Shown in pieces: positions 228 through 20,828 of a DNA stretch of 30,244 nucleotides (positions are counted from its first letter, which is position 1; every line of letters begins with the position of its first letter). This DNA comes from Candidatus Fraserbacteria bacterium (lineage in GTDB: Bacteria; Bipolaricaulota; Bipolaricaulia; RBG-16-55-9; DRXL01), in the NCBI GenBank assembly GCA_947085185.1, contig CAMTVK010000004.1, forward strand, positions 1 through 30,244, written 5' to 3'. The notes beneath the pieces are model-generated. The model saw nothing but the letters and a program-made list of their open reading frames with translations. It made no database searches and had not been told where the DNA came from. Position numbers and translations under genes: made by a program.

Positions 228-263
228 AAACTTCACCTCGTTCCTCAGCGTTTAACTTGGCTG

Positions 264-515
264 TCACGGGGTGAAAGCAGCCACACAGCCCATGATTGCT
301 CCTGCTCCTGTTGGTAGTTGGGTATCGAGTTCTTTGGATACCCTGGTCTCATCAGTTACAGGGAGAGAGCCTGCTATATCAAAACTTGACTGTTTGCCGC
401 AACGAGGACAAAGGCCGCTTGGCCGGTGCGAGTCCGGCAAGCCTTCATTTTCGGGCGGCAATACTTCGTCTCGTCGTCCTTTGCGCTTTGGTTCGCTTTT
501 TTCGAACATAAACAT
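264..515 (-). CDS. 83-aa cassette ORF with a single CxxC (LCPRCGKQSSF); possibly a truncated or fused gene
   Basis: ATG 515 follows the core site at 585-591, with AAGGG upstream. Only one zinc-ribbon knuckle is present. Confidence 0.45.
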   Translation of the reverse strand: MFMFEKSEPKRKGRRDEVLPPENEGLPDSHRPSGLCPRCGKQSSFDIAGSLPVTDETRVSKELDTQLPTGAGAIMGCVAAFTP

Positions 516-15321: not shown

Positions 15322-16290
15322 ATGGCCTCTGAAAGACGGTGGATATTCATCGTGACTGTCGTAGCAGCTCTCATTGCTTCAGCGATCTACACCCTGCGCC
15401 AGCCGTTGGAATTTGAGACGGGCGCGTTGGTGCGTGTCAAGACTCCGCCTTTGCCCTCAGAATTTTCCGTGCGCTTCCACTGGGGCGAGGACTTCTGGCG
15501 CAGCCCAGACTTGGCTCTCCAAGTCGCTAAGACGATCAGAGTCTCAGAAGAGCCTGGGGAGACCTGGCCTGTGGTCTCATGGTTGTCTCACAACTTAGAA
15601 GTTCGCGAATCCGACGGGGTAGTCACGCTGAGGCTGCGCGGCGGCTTTGCCCAGCGCACCGTGCGCGATGCCCTCGCCGAGTATATCAAGCAAGCCTCAG
15701 AGAAGATCAAGAGCGACCTGCGCGCAAGCCTTGAGCGCGAGAGCGCTCGCTTGAGCGAACTGCAACAAGCACTTGAGAACTATCGCCAGCACATTATCCA
15801 AACGCTCACAGCCCGGGTAGAAGAGCAACGAGCTTTACTCCAGAGTCAAAAAGAGCGCATCACGAAAGAGCTTCAAGAGCTCCTCAAGAGCCGGCTGGCT
15901 CAGATACGAATCACTGAGCAGGGCGCGACGCTGGAGAGTTGGTACTATCGCAATTATTTAGAGTCGCTGCTGCGACGCCTGGAAGAGCTTGAGCGCGAGC
16001 TCGATCGCCTGGGAGCCCACGGGATCAGTATCTTTGAGGAAGAGTATCGGCGTGTTGGAGAGCTCGAGGGGCGTATGGCGTCCCTGGCCCAAGCGCGCGT
16101 GGAAGCGCAGCAAATTCTCGAACGATGGGAGCCCGTAGAGATCATAACGCCGGCCCAGCTGCCGCAGGGGCCGGTGGGGCCGGATCGCTCCCAGACTCTC
16201 TTATGGGGGACGGGCGTTGGGATTGTTTTAGGGATTGTGCTGGCGATCTTCTCCCCGCGACGGCGCAACACAGAGCGCGCACGCGATTAG
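15322..16290 (+). CDS. Wzz/polysaccharide co-polymerase-like membrane protein
   Basis: N-terminal TM, long coiled coil, Pro-rich segment (PAQLPQGPVGP) before a Gly-rich C-terminal TM; follows wecB. Confidence 0.7.
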   Translation: MASERRWIFIVTVVAALIASAIYTLRQPLEFETGALVRVKTPPLPSEFSVRFHWGEDFWRSPDLALQVAKTIRVSEEPGETWPVVSWLSHNLEVRESDGVVTLRLRGGFAQRTVRDALAEYIKQASEKIKSDLRASLERESARLSELQQALENYRQHIIQTLTARVEEQRALLQSQKERITKELQELLKSRLAQIRITEQGATLESWYYRNYLESLLRRLEELERELDRLGAHGISIFEEEYRRVGELEGRMASLAQARVEAQQILERWEPVEIITPAQLPQGPVGPDRSQTLLWGTGVGIVLGIVLAIFSPRRRNTERARD

Positions 16291-17036
16291 TCTGGCCAAA
16301 ACTCTTCAGGATAGCTCAGAAATCTTAATCGTTCTGGAGTCTTGATGAGCTCGTAGATGGGGCGGCCGTGAGAGAGCCCCAATTCTGGGTATTGGGGAGC
16401 AAGGATGATGCGCAGCGGGGGCAGAGAGTTATAGTGGGGGTTGGGGATGATTGTCAGATCTCCCTCACCCGCAGGACGGGGTGAGGACCTCAGCACAAAG
16501 TACGCCCCGCCACCTTTCTCTTCAAAGGGCTCGTAGAGGCTCTCGACTTTGGTCGAGACCCAGTTGGCCATCTTCAGAATCTGATCTGTGGGGTTGATCG
16601 TGACGTGGCCGTAATTGGGAGGCACAAGCACGATCTGGCCTTCGTGGGCGACGACGAGCACCACATCAGTAATTCTGTCGTGGTCGCGCTTCTGCAATAA
16701 GACGTGAGCTTGGCCCTCTAAGACCTGATAGAGCTCGGGGTAGCAGAGCCCCGGCTTGTACTCAGAGTGATAGTGCCCCTTCGTTTTATTGTGCTCTTGC
16801 CCGAGGGGCGTGGGGAGCAGCACGGTGATATCGTAGCGTATGTGGAGCTGCCCTGCGATCTGTCGGTCTTCAGGGAGCACACAATCGCGGTACATCAGAT
16901 AGAGGGGTCGGTCCAAATCAGCGGTGCGCAGCCAGTCTCTGTCGAAGATCACCGACTGCATCTCACGGAGAGTGCGAACTTGGGGGCGGATCTCGCGATC
17001 GCCGACGCACAGAGCTTCCATAGTGATGTCCACCAT
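16287..17036 (-). CDS. Cupin-type (archaeal-type) glucose-6-phosphate isomerase family protein
   Basis: LYLMYRD, RYDITV, KTKGHYH, YPELYQVLEG, VPPNYGHVTIN, GGAY. Start uncertain (17060, 17036 or 17021). Confidence 0.85.
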   Translation of the reverse strand: MVDITMEALCVGDREIRPQVRTLREMQSVIFDRDWLRTADLDRPLYLMYRDCVLPEDRQIAGQLHIRYDITVLLPTPLGQEHNKTKGHYHSEYKPGLCYPELYQVLEGQAHVLLQKRDHDRITDVVLVVAHEGQIVLVPPNYGHVTINPTDQILKMANWVSTKVESLYEPFEEKGGGAYFVLRSSPRPAGEGDLTIIPNPHYNSLPPLRIILAPQYPELGLSHGRPIYELIKTPERLRFLSYPEEFWPD

Positions 17037-17060
17037 AGCAGCTGGTTTTGCTCGATGCAA

Positions 17061-18197
17061 CTATAAGCTCATAAGAGCCTGCAATGCGTCTCGCGTGATC
17101 TGCATGGCTTGCTCGAGGCGTTCGGGGCTGGACTCGTCCAGGGCGTCAATCAAGTGCTCTAAGAGCATCTTGATGGGGGTCACGCGAAAGAGCTTTTCAG
17201 CATAGACAAAAGCGCTGATTCTCTGGCGGCGCAGTAAGATATTGAGGGCGTCCGTCAGTTGCAGCTCGTTGTTTTTATCTGGGGGAGTCGCCTGAAGAGC
17301 TTCGAAGATCTGGGGCACAAGCACGTAGCGCCCGACGATAGTCAGCCCCTTGCTATGCCCCTTGGTCGGCTTCTCTTGGAGCTCTTCGATCAAATAGACG
17401 TGCTCTTGGATGGGCTTGCCCAAGTGCGCGATCCCGTAGTTTTTGAAATCAGCTGCCCCTTCGGCGCCGGTGACCGCGAGCACGCTGCACCGATAGTGTT
17501 CATAGAGAGCCAGCATCTGCCGCAGACAGTTGCGGCCCTCCCCTAAGAGAATATCATCGGGCAGGATGACGGCAAAGGGCTCGTCGCCCACGACCCCATG
17601 AGTAGTTAGAATGGCGTGGCCCAGCCCCAATTGCGGCTCTTGGACGACCGTGCGCACTTTGAGAGATCGGGGAAGCTTTAATGTTGGGACGGCTTTGCCG
17701 GGCGCCAGCACCAAGACGACCTCGCTCACGCCTGCGAGGGCGGCTTCTTGGAGCGCGGGGCGGAGCATCTTCCCGAGCTGTTCTGGGGAGAGCAACCGGG
17801 GCTGCCAGCCCGCCACGGGGATGACAGCGCGACGCACGCGCTTGCGGCGCAGCTCCCGCCAGCGCCCGATCATCCGAGAGAACTCTTCGATCAGCTCATC
17901 GCGCTCAGGCTGGGGAAGCTCGGCGAGCTGTTCTGTAATATCGTTCAGGCGCGGCGTCAGCTCTGCTGTGGGCTGATGGCCTGCGGCCTGCAGGAGCTCT
18001 CTCTTCTCTGAGGGGGTCAGGTCGAGCGCCTGCATCAGGCGCGTGAGCATGGCAAGCGAGGGCCGGCGCTGCCCCCGCTCAAGATACGTGACAAAGCTTG
18101 CCGAGACCCCGGCACGCTGGGCCAACTGGGCTCTGTTCAGCCCCAGCCGCTCCCGATGCCCCTGCAGCAAGCGCGCCAGCTCCGTTAGGTCGTGCAT
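17061..18197 (-). CDS. XRE-family HTH fused to a degenerate GalU-like (UTP-glucose-1-phosphate uridylyltransferase) domain; putative transcription regulator
   Basis: N-terminus RERLGLNRAQLAQRAGVSASFVTYLERGQRRPS. C-terminal domain keeps AVIPVAG, Q-x3-LGLGHA, FAVILPD, YG, EKP, GRYVL and ELQLTDA, but lacks GxGTR/PKEM and the terminal DxG. Confidence 0.85.
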   Translation of the reverse strand: MHDLTELARLLQGHRERLGLNRAQLAQRAGVSASFVTYLERGQRRPSLAMLTRLMQALDLTPSEKRELLQAAGHQPTAELTPRLNDITEQLAELPQPERDELIEEFSRMIGRWRELRRKRVRRAVIPVAGWQPRLLSPEQLGKMLRPALQEAALAGVSEVVLVLAPGKAVPTLKLPRSLKVRTVVQEPQLGLGHAILTTHGVVGDEPFAVILPDDILLGEGRNCLRQMLALYEHYRCSVLAVTGAEGAADFKNYGIAHLGKPIQEHVYLIEELQEKPTKGHSKGLTIVGRYVLVPQIFEALQATPPDKNNELQLTDALNILLRRQRISAFVYAEKLFRVTPIKMLLEHLIDALDESSPERLEQAMQITRDALQALMSL

Positions 18198-18212: not shown

Positions 18213-18241
18213 AGCTTAGCTCTTGCTCTTCACTCTGTCAA
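18213..18241 (-). promoter_or_regulatory. Promoter of the HTH-GalU/PGI genes with an overlapping candidate operator
   Basis: TTGACA (18241-18236), 17 bp, TAAGCT (18218-18213); box TTCACTCTGTCAA at 18229-18241. Confidence 0.7.
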
Positions 18242-18331
18242 GAGCCCCACCAAGAGATAAGCCCTCTTCCCCCATAGCGTTGTGGAAGCTCCAGCAAGAA
18301 AATCGCGATCAGAAGAGTATCTTTATAGCAG

Positions 18332-18382
18332 TTGACGTTCACTTTGTGAATATTTTATAGTATAAATGGTTCACTCAGTGAT
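18332..18382 (+). promoter_or_regulatory. ppsA promoter with two palindromic candidate operators
   Basis: TTGACG (18332-18337), 18 bp, TATAGT (18356-18361); boxes TTCACTTTGTGAA (18338-18350) and TTCACTCAGTGAT (18370-18382). Confidence 0.75.
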
Positions 18383-18401
18383 GAGCGTAAGGAGGCAGCC
18401 C

Positions 18402-20828
18402 ATGAGAACCATCGCATGGTTGGATGAGGTCGGACAAGCTGATGTGAGCTTGGTAGGGGGAAAGGGGGCATCTTTGGGGGAGATGCGTCGGGCCCTGCAA
18501 GGCATTCCCGTGCCCGACGGCTTTATCGTTACTGCCGAAGCGTTTCGTGCGTTTTTGGAGCGCACAGGGCTGGACAAGCGCATCCGCGCGCTCACCAGCC
18601 AGCTCGATACCCATAACGTCCAGATGCTCGCCGACTATGGGCAAAGCCTCAGAAATCTTATCATTGAGACGCCCTTGCCGTCTGATCTTGAGAGCGAGAT
18701 CGTGCGCGCCTATCGCGAGCTGGTGCGCAAGACCGGCAGCCCAGACGTCGCCGTGCGCTCTTCAGCAACACTCGAAGATTCCCAAGAGCACTCATTTGCC
18801 GGCCAGCACGACACGTTCTTGAATATCAAAACCGAAGCGATGCTTTTAGATCGCGTGCGTCGGTGCTTTGCCAGCCTCTTCACCGATCGCGCGATCTCTT
18901 ATAGGCGCGACCGAGGGGTTGCTAACGGTGACGTGGACTTAGCCGTGGTCGTCCAGCAGATGGTGCGCTCAGACCTAGCAGCTTCTGGGGTACTCTTCAC
19001 CATTGACCCCGAATCGGGCGCGGAGAATGTCGTCTATGTGACGTCGTCGTATGGGTTTGGGGAGCTCGTCGTGCAGGGGCGGGTCAACCCTGATCAGTTC
19101 TATGTTTTTAAGCCGGGGCTGGTCAATGGCTATGCAGCCCTGATCGAGAAACGTTTAGGGAGCAAGCAGAAGAAGCTCGTCTGCGCCAATGGCGCGCTCA
19201 CAGAAGAAGACGTCTCTCTTGAAGAACAACAACGGTTTTCTCTCAGTGACGACGAAGTGTTGCAATTAGCTCGGTGGGCGGTGCAGATCGAGAAGCATTA
19301 CGGGCGCCCCATGGACATCGAGTGGGCCAAAGATGGGGGCAGTCAAAGACTTTTTATCGTGCAGGCGCGTCCGGAGACGGTCCACGGGGCCAAGGGCGCC
19401 CATACTCTTGAGAACTTCGTGCTTGAGGAGACGGGGGAACTCTTAGCTTGGGGCGAGCCGGTGGGCAGCAAGATCGGTCAAGGGCCAGCGCACGTCATTC
19501 TCGACGTCAAAGAGATCGCGCGTTTTGCTCCCGGCGAAGTTCTGGTGACCGAGATGACCGATCCCGACTGGGAACCCATTATGAAGATTGCCTCGGCGAT
19601 CGTGACCGAGCGCGGGGGGAGGACGTGCCATGCCGCGATCATCTCGCGCGAGCTAGGCATTCCGTGCGTCATCGGAGCAGAGAACGCCACCAAGAAGATT
19701 CAGTCCGGGCAAGAGATCACCGTAGACTGCTCTCAGGGTGAAGGGCGCGTCTTTGCTGGGCGCTTGAAGTTCAGAATTGATCGCATCGATGTGGCACAGC
19801 TGCCTCGCACGCGCACAAAAATTATGATGAACGTGGGCATCCCGGAGACGGCGTTTGCCCAAGCGCGCATCCCCAACGACGGCGTCGGGCTCGCCCGCGA
19901 AGAGTTTATTATCAGTTCGCACATTGGGATTCACCCCAAGGCGCTCTTAGAATACGAGCAGCTCAAAGCCCGCGCGCCCCACGATGAGCAGATCGCCCAG
20001 ATCATTAAAGAGATCGACGCGCGCACCGTGGGCTACCTCGACAAGGCCCAGTTCTTTATAGACAAGCTTGCGTCGGGGGTCGCGAAGATCGCTGCGGCCT
20101 TCTGGCCCAACGACGTGATCGTCAGGCTGTCAGACTTCAAGAGCAACGAGTACGCGAGCTTGATCGGGGGCGCGCTCTACGAACCGACCGAGTCCAATCC
20201 CATGATCGGCTGGCGGGGCGCGTCGCGGTATTACGATCCCAAATACAAAGATGCATTCGGTCTCGAATGCCAAGCGCTTGTGAAAGCCCGCGACGAGATG
20301 GGTCTCACAAACATTAAAGTGATGATCCCCTTCTGTCGCACTCCCCAAGAAGGGCGCAAAGTCATCGAGACGATGGGGGAGTTTGGGCTCAAGCAGGGCG
20401 AGAATGGTCTTGAGATCTATGTGATGTGCGAGATCCCAAGCAACGTGATCTTGGCTGAAGAGTTCGCTGAGATTTTTGACGGTTTTTCGATTGGGAGCAA
20501 CGATCTCACGCAGTTAACGTTGGGGCTGGATCGAGACTCAGAGCTGGTCGCGCATATTTACGATGAGCGCAACGAGGCCGTCAAGCGTCTGGTCCGGCAC
20601 GTCATTGGCGTAGCACGACGCAAGGGGCGCAAGATCGGGATCTGCGGGCAGGCGCCCTCAGACTTCCCAGAATTTGCAGAGTTCTTGGTCGAATGTGGGA
20701 TCGACAGCATCTCGCTCAACCCCGATACGGTCATCAAGACGAGATTGCTCATAGCCGAGAAAGAACGCGAGCTTTCACTTTCCCCACAAACTCACATCGC
20801 CCTTGGCGAAGCGCTCCGCTTCGTCTAA
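18402..20828 (+). CDS. ppsA: Phosphoenolpyruvate synthase (pyruvate, water dikinase)
   Basis: VGGKGASLGEM, VAVRSSA, SFAGQ, GGRTCHAAI (phospho-His), NPMIGWRGASRY, FSIGSNDLTQ; ATG 18402 with AAGGAGG. Confidence 0.98.
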   Translation: MRTIAWLDEVGQADVSLVGGKGASLGEMRRALQGIPVPDGFIVTAEAFRAFLERTGLDKRIRALTSQLDTHNVQMLADYGQSLRNLIIETPLPSDLESEIVRAYRELVRKTGSPDVAVRSSATLEDSQEHSFAGQHDTFLNIKTEAMLLDRVRRCFASLFTDRAISYRRDRGVANGDVDLAVVVQQMVRSDLAASGVLFTIDPESGAENVVYVTSSYGFGELVVQGRVNPDQFYVFKPGLVNGYAALIEKRLGSKQKKLVCANGALTEEDVSLEEQQRFSLSDDEVLQLARWAVQIEKHYGRPMDIEWAKDGGSQRLFIVQARPETVHGAKGAHTLENFVLEETGELLAWGEPVGSKIGQGPAHVILDVKEIARFAPGEVLVTEMTDPDWEPIMKIASAIVTERGGRTCHAAIISRELGIPCVIGAENATKKIQSGQEITVDCSQGEGRVFAGRLKFRIDRIDVAQLPRTRTKIMMNVGIPETAFAQARIPNDGVGLAREEFIISSHIGIHPKALLEYEQLKARAPHDEQIAQIIKEIDARTVGYLDKAQFFIDKLASGVAKIAAAFWPNDVIVRLSDFKSNEYASLIGGALYEPTESNPMIGWRGASRYYDPKYKDAFGLECQALVKARDEMGLTNIKVMIPFCRTPQEGRKVIETMGEFGLKQGENGLEIYVMCEIPSNVILAEEFAEIFDGFSIGSNDLTQLTLGLDRDSELVAHIYDERNEAVKRLVRHVIGVARRKGRKIGICGQAPSDFPEFAEFLVECGIDSISLNPDTVIKTRLLIAEKERELSLSPQTHIALGEALRFV

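What the first reader, a model, noticed from the sequence alone, without database searches (positions are those of the whole stretch)
18229..18382. Three TTCACT-N2-GTGAA-like boxes over both divergent promoters
Seen: TTCACTTTGTGAA fills the ppsA -35/-10 spacer (TTCAC/GTGAA palindrome). TTCACTCAGTGAT lies 32 bp further on, just past the predicted start. TTCACTCTGTCAA overlaps the regulator's own -35. I saw no such box in the other promoters of the window. Known: XRE dimers bind short palindromes, and operators in these positions usually repress. Inference: these are the operators of the HTH-GalU protein, repressing ppsA and itself plus PGI. The motif can be used to predict the regulon.
Basis: partly seen in the sequence, partly recalled or inferred. 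Interest (0 to 1): 0.8.

Follow-up and report, generated by a model that had tools for sequence, protein, structure and literature searches.

The report
Operators of a GalU-derived gluconeogenesis repressor
Three copies of a short DNA palindrome sit on the promoter of a sugar-building enzyme gene and are conserved across this bacterial family; they are likely binding sites for the neighbouring regulator, which is built from a sugar-activating enzyme and would switch sugar synthesis off when its end product is plentiful.

Summary
Observation confirmed. The three 13-bp boxes (consensus WTVAC-N3-GTBAW) are the only exact matches in the window (0.41 expected). Their arms are 87-97% conserved in 10 orthologous regions, against 32% for the DNA between boxes 1 and 2. 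All 15 family genomes with ppsA found keep 2-4 boxes, including four where the XRE-GalU gene lies elsewhere. Two of those four also have a box at the same promoter position before FBP aldolase/phosphatase. A promoter-plus-box pattern occurs in 12 of 184 phylum genomes, all fusion carriers (one family). The best independent link: a 37%-identical homologue lies divergent to an intact galU, with three such boxes over both promoters. The GalU-like domain keeps the sugar-phosphate pocket but has an altered GxGTR loop. No Rex, LysR or LacI was found; CRP/FNR proteins remain a rival. Best reading: operators of an apparently undescribed enzyme-derived repressor (BzdR/NadR-like design) that damps gluconeogenesis, probably with UDP-glucose as corepressor. 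Binding, ligand and direction are inferred. Autoregulation and pgi control are limited to some lineages, and the regulon is small.

The parts
18229..18241 (.). Box 1. Upstream operator of ppsA; its right arm doubles as the predicted -35 of the regulator promoter on the - strand
   Evidence: kept 43-44 or 105-110 bp upstream of box 2, also where the regulator gene is not adjacent
18338..18350 (.). Box 2. Perfect dyad filling the ppsA -35/-10 spacer
   Evidence: intact in 14 of 15 family ppsA promoters
18370..18382 (.). Box 3. 32 bp after box 2, just past the predicted transcription start
   Evidence: 32-33 bp spacing kept in both genera
18332..18361 (+). Predicted sigma-70-type promoter of ppsA (-35 at 18332-18337, 18-bp spacer, -10 at 18356-18361)
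   Evidence: conserved in orthologues; transcription start not mapped
18213..18241 (-). Predicted promoter of the regulator (-35 at 18241..18236, 17-bp spacer, weak -10 at 18218..18213)
   Evidence: read from the sequence; similar hexamer in most same-genus orthologues; not called by the scanner
17061..18197 (-). XRE helix-turn-helix + GalU-like nucleotidyltransferase fusion, 378 aa; candidate binder of the boxes
18402..20828 (+). ppsA, phosphoenolpyruvate synthase; ribosome-binding site at 18390-18395
   Evidence: TIGR01418 and PRK06464 above cut-off
16287..17060 (-). Cupin-type glucose-6-phosphate isomerase directly after the regulator, probably co-transcribed here
   Evidence: PF06560; adjacency in 6 of 15 fusion loci

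Best explanation
The three boxes are conserved palindromes on the ppsA promoter and are likely the operators of the adjacent XRE-GalU fusion protein, which would repress ppsA, and in this lineage its own gene, probably when a sugar nucleotide such as UDP-glucose fills its GalU-like pocket. Steps: (1) shown: the boxes exist, are conserved, and sit in the spacer, just past the predicted start, and upstream. (2) Inferred, about 0.95: they are transcription-factor sites. (3) Inferred, about 0.8: the binder is a dimer of the fusion protein, through its XRE domain. (4) Inferred from position, about 0.85: binding blocks RNA polymerase. (5) Inferred, about 0.5: the GalU-like domain is a poor or dead enzyme used as a sensor, and UDP-glucose acts as corepressor. 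That is the one direction that fits all the targets seen (ppsA, FBP aldolase/phosphatase, and galU in a distant homologue), since each lies upstream of UDP-glucose. The result would be end-product feedback on the committed steps of gluconeogenesis. The confidence given is for steps 1-4.
For: Footprint: arms 94/100, 97/100 and 87/100 identical to the window across 10 orthologues, against 282/880 between boxes 1 and 2. 15 of 15 family ppsA promoters have at least 2 boxes, 14 of 15 at least 3. Second target: in G015 and G016, the two genomes where FBP aldolase/phosphatase is not behind the rmlA-like gene, a box directly follows the -35, as box 2 does at ppsA. G014, with no fusion found, has none there. 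Co-occurrence: fusion in 15 of 184 phylum genomes; promoter-plus-box pattern in 12 of 184, all carriers, 0 of 169 non-carriers. Distant homologue L174 (37% identity) is divergent to an intact galU, with three boxes over both promoters, two of them 32 bp apart (0 of 200 shuffles). Of 9 distant loci, the three with the closest HTH (46, 41, 38%) have at least 2 sites upstream and the six at 27-30% have none; null 3 of 685 promoters. The fusion is the only XRE above cut-off in G000, G003 and G015. No Rex or LysR, and no LacI above cut-off, in 5 of 5 genomes. Protein: XRE five-helix domain plus GalU fold. It keeps GLGHA, LPDD and EKP, but GxGTR has become AGWQPR and the PKEML lysine is deleted in all fusions aligned. 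In E. coli GalU the EKP lysine serves Glc-1-P binding, and changing the GLGTR loop cut activity about 500-fold (PMC4643126 passages). Pyruvate kinase is present and no PfkA-family kinase was found in 5 of 5 genomes, which fits a gluconeogenic role for ppsA.
Against: No binding, expression or ligand data. All carriers in the phylum form one family, so the co-occurrence is one evolutionary event, and the pattern was built from the carriers. Four genomes (G003, G015-G017) have no box upstream of the fusion gene. These genomes hold 8-13 CRP/FNR-type and several MarR-type matches, and many regulator families were not screened. The Entotheonella-type clade and L177/L178 have no such boxes. The sites in L171 and L175 each carry one mismatch. 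One arm resembles a -35 hexamer, which inflates scores at promoters. No canonical galU was found in 17 of 17 relatives and the catalytic Arg is kept, so the domain may still be an enzyme. G012 has a two-box promoter before an unrelated ThiF/E1-like operon, which a sugar-sensing model does not explain. The FBP aldolase/phosphatase operon promoter was not reached in the same-genus genomes, and no strong site lay within 1.5 kb.
Confidence: 0.7

Rival explanations
1. The boxes are real operators but belong to another trans-acting regulator, such as one of the many CRP/FNR-type proteins or a MarR-type or unscreened factor. The fusion gene sits beside ppsA by rearrangement.
For: Boxes stay with ppsA when the fusion gene is elsewhere and box-free. 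8-13 CRP/FNR-type matches per genome. A boxed promoter precedes an unrelated operon in G012.
Against: CRP/FNR sites have an even TGA-N6-TCA core (recalled), whereas this site is odd-spaced and mostly TCA-N5-TGA. G014 has 13 CRP/FNR matches but no box at FBP aldolase/phosphatase. This reading does not explain boxes beside the 37%-identical homologue L174. No Rex or LysR, no LacI above cut-off, and TrmB clearly only in G014.
Confidence: 0.15
2. The fusion binds the boxes but is a working bifunctional enzyme-regulator that supplies UDP-glucose itself, or its ligand releases rather than tightens binding.
For: No canonical galU in 17 of 17 relatives; the genome's own copy is frameshifted on a 3.2-kb contig. 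The Arg of the GxGTR loop, the DD pair and the EKP lysine are kept.
Against: The loop is rewritten and shortened by two 5-residue deletions throughout the family. L174 keeps an intact galU next door. An rmlA-like transferase that might make UDP-glucose is present in 17 of 18 family genomes (its substrate range is untested).
Confidence: 0.12
3. The boxes are only conserved promoter sequence or chance similarity to -35 hexamers.
For: Box 1's arm is a -35 hexamer. The stretch between boxes 2 and 3 is also 77% conserved.
Against: Three copies at fixed spacing in two genera, variation concentrated in the central three bases and at symmetric arm positions, box 1 kept in G017 with the -35 hexamer broken, and recurrence at a second gluconeogenic gene.
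Confidence: 0.03

Closest known systems
BzdR (XRE HTH + shikimate-kinase-like effector domain)
   Same: N-terminal DNA-binding domain joined by a linker to an enzyme-derived ligand-binding domain that has lost activity (PMC3602430 abstract). The fusion itself scores weakly against the BzdR model over its N-terminus.
   Different: The sensor here is a GalU/nucleotidyltransferase fold. Predicted targets are gluconeogenic, and the predicted logic is corepression, not induction by benzoyl-CoA.
Enterobacterial NadR (XRE HTH + NMN adenylyltransferase + kinase)
   Same: An XRE domain fused to a nucleotidyltransferase that represses synthesis when the end product is bound (recalled; PMC5343134 seen only in a search listing).
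   Different: A different transferase fold (HIGH-type versus GalU-type; recalled), ligand, operator and pathway. NadR keeps enzyme activity.
GalU / GalF UDP-glucose pyrophosphorylases
   Same: Fold and sugar-phosphate pocket: all listed Foldseek hits are GalU structures, best E 9e-20. Like GalF, it has an altered GxG(T/S)R loop (PMC4643126 passages).
   Different: Carries an XRE domain, scores 142 bits against the TIGR01099 cut-off of 327, and the loop change differs from GalF's (Arg kept, PKEML lysine and two 5-residue stretches lost).
Archaeal TrmB/TrmBL1 gluconeogenesis regulators
   Same: One sugar-sensing factor controls gluconeogenic genes (PMC10817205, start of abstract in listing).
   Different: Unrelated protein family. 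The Thermococcales motif has a 5-bp spacer (recalled). TrmB is clearly present only in G014, which lacks the boxes where tested.
XRE controller (C) proteins of restriction-modification systems
   Same: XRE dimers on short palindromic operators overlapping their own promoter (PMC2632904 passages). The HTH matches C.AhdI (E 6e-5).
   Different: C proteins have no sensor domain and use two closely abutting operators; here sites lie 32 and 44-110 bp apart.

Membership tests
XRE (HTH_3) one-component regulators | Cro/C1-type five-helix HTH domain | tested here: met
   PF01381 44.9 bits, cut-off 23; PF13560 52.7 bits; five helices in residues 2-71 of the model
XRE (HTH_3) one-component regulators | Binds palindromic operators as a dimer | not testable with these tools
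   inferred from footprinting and homologue neighbourhoods only; no dimer model was obtained
Enzyme-derived sensor regulators (BzdR-like design) | DNA-binding domain fused to a domain with an enzyme fold | tested here: met
Enzyme-derived sensor regulators (BzdR-like design) | Enzyme activity lost, ligand binding kept | tested here: inconclusive
   loop degenerate, pocket residues kept, but Arg kept and no other galU in relatives; needs an assay
BzdR subfamily | Shikimate-kinase-like C-terminal domain | tested here: not met
   NF006015 matches residues 4-113 only, 31 bits against cut-off 204
GalU (TIGR01099) | Whole-protein score above cut-off and intact GxG(T/S)R...PKEML signature | tested here: not met
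   141.9 against 326.8 bits; signature reads AGWQPR with deletions
Rex regulon | Rex protein present, and TTGTGAA-N4-TTCACAA site (site recalled) | tested here: not met
   PF06971 in 0 of 5 genomes; the half-sites here face the other way
LysR T-N11-A sites | LysR-type protein present | tested here: not met
   PF00126 in 0 of 5 genomes, although the 13-bp box fits T-N11-A formally
CRP/FNR regulons | CRP/FNR protein present | tested here: met
   8-13 matches per genome in 5 of 5
CRP/FNR regulons | TGA-N6-TCA core spacing (recalled) | tested here: not met
   the box is one base shorter and mostly inverted
TrmB regulons | TrmB protein in box-carrying genomes | tested here: not met
   above cut-off only in G014 (73.9 bits) and marginally in G003 (28.9); below cut-off in G000, G015, G016

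The most novel reading that the evidence does not exclude
A widespread, undescribed family of XRE-pseudo-GalU transcription factors (signature AGWQxRL; about 50 full-length clusters at 50% identity among the best 150 hits) senses UDP-glucose directly. It uses WTVAC-N3-GTBAW operators to shut down gluconeogenesis and UDP-glucose synthesis by end-product feedback, and in some strains also gates a c-di-GMP-riboswitch surface operon. It would be a bacterial counterpart of archaeal TrmB control built from a retired GalU, and a ready-made UDP-glucose biosensor.
Probability: 0.4. Interest if true: 0.8.

Novelty: new variant of a known kind. Interest (0 to 1): 0.62.

Why it matters
It pairs an apparently uncharacterised regulator family with a specific operator, named targets and a ligand hypothesis, all testable with one purified protein and three oligonucleotides. 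If right, it adds a sugar-nucleotide-sensing transcription factor to the few known enzyme-turned-regulator cases. It also gives a first account of how a deep-branching, probably autotrophic lineage meters gluconeogenesis: PMC3267732 (passages) describes ppsA and FBP aldolase/phosphatase as gluconeogenic there and has no occurrence of 'regulat'. Literature searches found no description of this fusion or motif; they cover open-licence PMC and bioRxiv only, and curated regulon databases were not searched.

Tried and rejected
Rex, LysR, LacI, TrmB and GntR as binders: not found or below cut-off in the box-carrying genomes, apart from marginal TrmB and GntR hits in G003. Broad regulon: a PWM scan of 868 upstream regions of this genome gave few candidates. 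The site at C19:68243 (aminotransferase/subtilase) was not conserved in the other 11 loci, one of which lacked upstream sequence. The site at C6:103846 recurs in G008 and G009 but lies within or next to coding sequence and was not resolved. A glnA site in G002 is absent in G000. Other recurrent matches were inside a conserved Clp-type ATPase gene. A structured RNA: Rfam found nothing at the locus. GTDB-wide promoter pattern: 15 loci, 12 from this family (11 judged by record title, L088 by its genes) and 3 unrelated, treated as chance without testing them for the fusion. A metagenome scan with P0052 found nothing. Expression: no RNA holder listed. A homodimer prediction was not obtained, so dimer formation is untested. 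A per-column tally of the boxes was not made; the count matrix stands in for it. Paper searches gave nothing usable on the PKEML lysine, so its catalytic role is recalled. Three look-ups of earlier findings returned nothing. Rows dropped before the distant-locus count: L172 (duplicate of L171), L173 and L176 (under 60 bp upstream).

Full report
Observation. They lie in the 204-bp gap between ppsA (18402-20828, +; above the TIGR01418 cut-off) and a divergent 378-aa gene (17061-18197, -) that joins an XRE helix-turn-helix to a GalU-like domain. A cupin glucose-6-phosphate isomerase follows that gene. The dyad is 13 bp with a 3-bp centre. Box 2 fills the spacer of the one promoter the scanner calls. 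Box 3 begins 32 bp later. Box 1's right arm is a perfect -35 for the - strand. These are the only three exact matches to WTVAC-N3-GTBAW in the window, against 0.41 expected, and none of 20,000 simulated intergenic regions had even two sites. Protein names in the databases place the lineage in Ca. Bipolaricaulota.

Footprinting. In 10 same-genus orthologous regions the box arms match the window at 94/100, 97/100 and 87/100 positions. The DNA between boxes 1 and 2 matches at 282/880 and varies in length by more than 60 bp. The stretch between boxes 2 and 3, which holds the -10, matches at 146/190. Of 18 family genomes, 15 yielded ppsA; all 15 have at least two boxes and 14 have at least three, with the 32-33 bp spacing kept in both genera. 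Two genomes of another family have ppsA without boxes, but there it lies inside an operon, so this is a weak control. In G017 box 1 survives with the -35 hexamer broken, so it is kept as a site in its own right.

What the boxes follow. They follow ppsA. In G003, G015, G016 and G017 the fusion gene is elsewhere and has no box upstream (best PWM score under 1), yet ppsA keeps 3-4 boxes. The divergent arrangement, with box 1 on the regulator's -35, holds in 11 of the 12 same-genus genomes with a full fusion gene. pgi lies close behind the fusion in 6 of those 12. A second target appeared: in G015 and G016 a box directly follows the -35 of the promoter for FBP aldolase/phosphatase, in the position of box 2. 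In the 12 same-genus genomes with that gene it lies, where the contig shows it, behind an rmlA-like gene, and no strong site was within 1.5 kb; G014, where no fusion was found, has none. In this genome a PWM scan of 868 upstream regions gave one further conserved site, before a c-di-GMP riboswitch operon. The regulon is therefore small. G012 has an unexplained two-box promoter before a ThiF/E1-like operon.

Which protein binds. (a) The fusion occurs in 15 of 184 phylum genomes, all in one family. A promoter-plus-box pattern occurs in 12 of 184, all carriers. A GTDB-wide scan gave 15 loci, 12 from this family. This is one evolutionary event, and the pattern was built from carriers. (b) In five genomes screened, Rex and LysR were not found, LacI was below cut-off, and TrmB and GntR were clear only in G014. 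The fusion is the only XRE above cut-off in G000, G003 and G015; G016 has several others. CRP/FNR-type (8-13 matches each) and MarR-type proteins are present, and other families were not screened. (c) The most independent evidence comes from distant homologues found in metagenomes. L174, 37% identical overall and 41% in the HTH, lies divergent to an intact galU. The gap holds three boxes: one forms the galU -35 and spacer, one follows it, and one lies on the fusion's own predicted -35, 32 bp from the first (0 of 200 shuffles; 0 of 838 upstream windows of this genome had two sites of that score). Of 9 distant loci counted, those with HTH identity of 46, 41 and 38% have at least two sites within one mismatch, against 3 of 685 in the null; the six at 27-30% have none. 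The L171 and L175 sites are weak, and one arm resembles a -35, so I weight L174 most.

The protein. The model (mean pLDDT 84, pTM 0.70) has a five-helix XRE domain, a helical linker and a GalU fold. All listed Foldseek hits are UDP-glucose pyrophosphorylases, and the HTH matches XRE structures including C.AhdI. Across the family the GxGTR loop reads AGWQ[PAS]R, two 5-residue stretches including the PKEML lysine are missing, and GLGHA, LPDD, EKP and GRY are largely kept. In E. coli GalU the loop matters for catalysis (about 500-fold loss on a double change) and the EKP lysine for Glc-1-P affinity (PMC4643126, passages). That suggests a pocket kept for binding. Against this, the Arg is kept and no canonical galU was found in 17 of 17 relatives, so residual activity is not excluded. 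The family is wider than this lineage: about 50 of the best 150 representatives at 50% identity match over both domains (my count), 19 of 150 carry the loop signature by a strict pattern, and the Atlas holds three clusters of 50-74 members with both domains. Neighbours of distant members include galU, a GAPDH-like gene and sugar epimerases.

Mechanism. Shown: boxes, positions, conservation, domain content. Inferred: a dimer of the fusion binds each box; occupancy of the spacer and of the site past the start blocks polymerase at ppsA; box 1 adds an upstream site and, in this lineage, self-repression. The targets seen (ppsA, FBP aldolase/phosphatase, pgi here, galU in L174) all lie upstream of UDP-glucose. 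Pyruvate kinase is present and no PfkA-family kinase was found in 5 of 5 genomes, and PMC3267732 (passages) treats these enzymes as gluconeogenic in a member of this phylum. Corepression by UDP-glucose is the simplest logic that fits. I put the fusion-as-repressor reading at 0.7 and the ligand at about 0.5. Rivals: another regulator 0.15, a bifunctional enzyme or opposite ligand effect 0.12, mere promoter conservation 0.03.

Comparison and novelty. It works like BzdR (PMC3602430, abstract) and NadR (recalled): an XRE domain with an enzyme-derived sensor. It is not a member of either family, nor a GalU by cut-off. Functionally it parallels archaeal TrmB control of gluconeogenesis (PMC10817205, listing only). 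XRE dimers on short promoter-overlapping palindromes are established (PMC2632904, passages). Searches found no paper on this fusion or motif in the open-licence library; subscription journals, regulon databases and supplementary tables were not seen and might list the domain pairing. Verdict: a real feature, a new variant of a known kind of regulator-operator system, directly testable; interest 0.62.

Noticed in passing
G000:C19:51285-51297 (L047): A box overlaps the -35 of a promoter that leads into a c-di-GMP-I riboswitch (Rfam RF03167, 75 bits) and a secreted-protein operon that looks pilus-like (label by eye). The box is kept in 6 of the 7 genomes with this leader and absent in the 6 where a different promoter drives the next gene. 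Candidate regulon member.
   Followed up: partly
L075:7372-7439 (G012:C63): A two-box promoter (44-bp spacing, like the ppsA promoter of the other genus) precedes a ThiF/E1-like and AAA-ATPase operon; the first ORF has a stop right after its apparent start codon. The E1-like gene is in 2 of 184 phylum genomes; the G006 copy has a different upstream gene order and its promoter was not reached. Unexplained.
   Followed up: partly
L168, L169, L170, L179 upstream of the fusion gene: This clade (a cluster member is named Ca. Entotheonella) has the fusion divergent to an archaeal-type GAPDH-like gene in L168, L170 and L179 (E 3e-12). A conserved inverted repeat there uses a similar half-site with a gap of about 20 bp.
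   Followed up: partly
L039, L155, L159, L034: Some genomes have a fourth box: 32 bp from box 1 towards the regulator, mirroring the box 2-3 spacing, or further into the ppsA leader in G003.
   Followed up: no
G000:C11:516-1380: A canonical galU in three frame-shifted pieces on a 3.2-kb contig; none found in 17 relatives. May be an assembly error or a foreign contig.
   Followed up: partly
L171/L172 and L175: Other distant fusions have sugar-enzyme neighbours: an aldose 1-epimerase domain two genes upstream, and a dTDP-sugar epimerase downstream.
   Followed up: no
L088: A record titled as a Thermotogae MAG carries this family's ppsA-regulator locus with the same coordinates as G009, so the title is probably a mislabel.
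   Followed up: no
window 263-275: A near-match lies in a stretch also present at the start of contig C3, so probably a repeated element.
   Followed up: no
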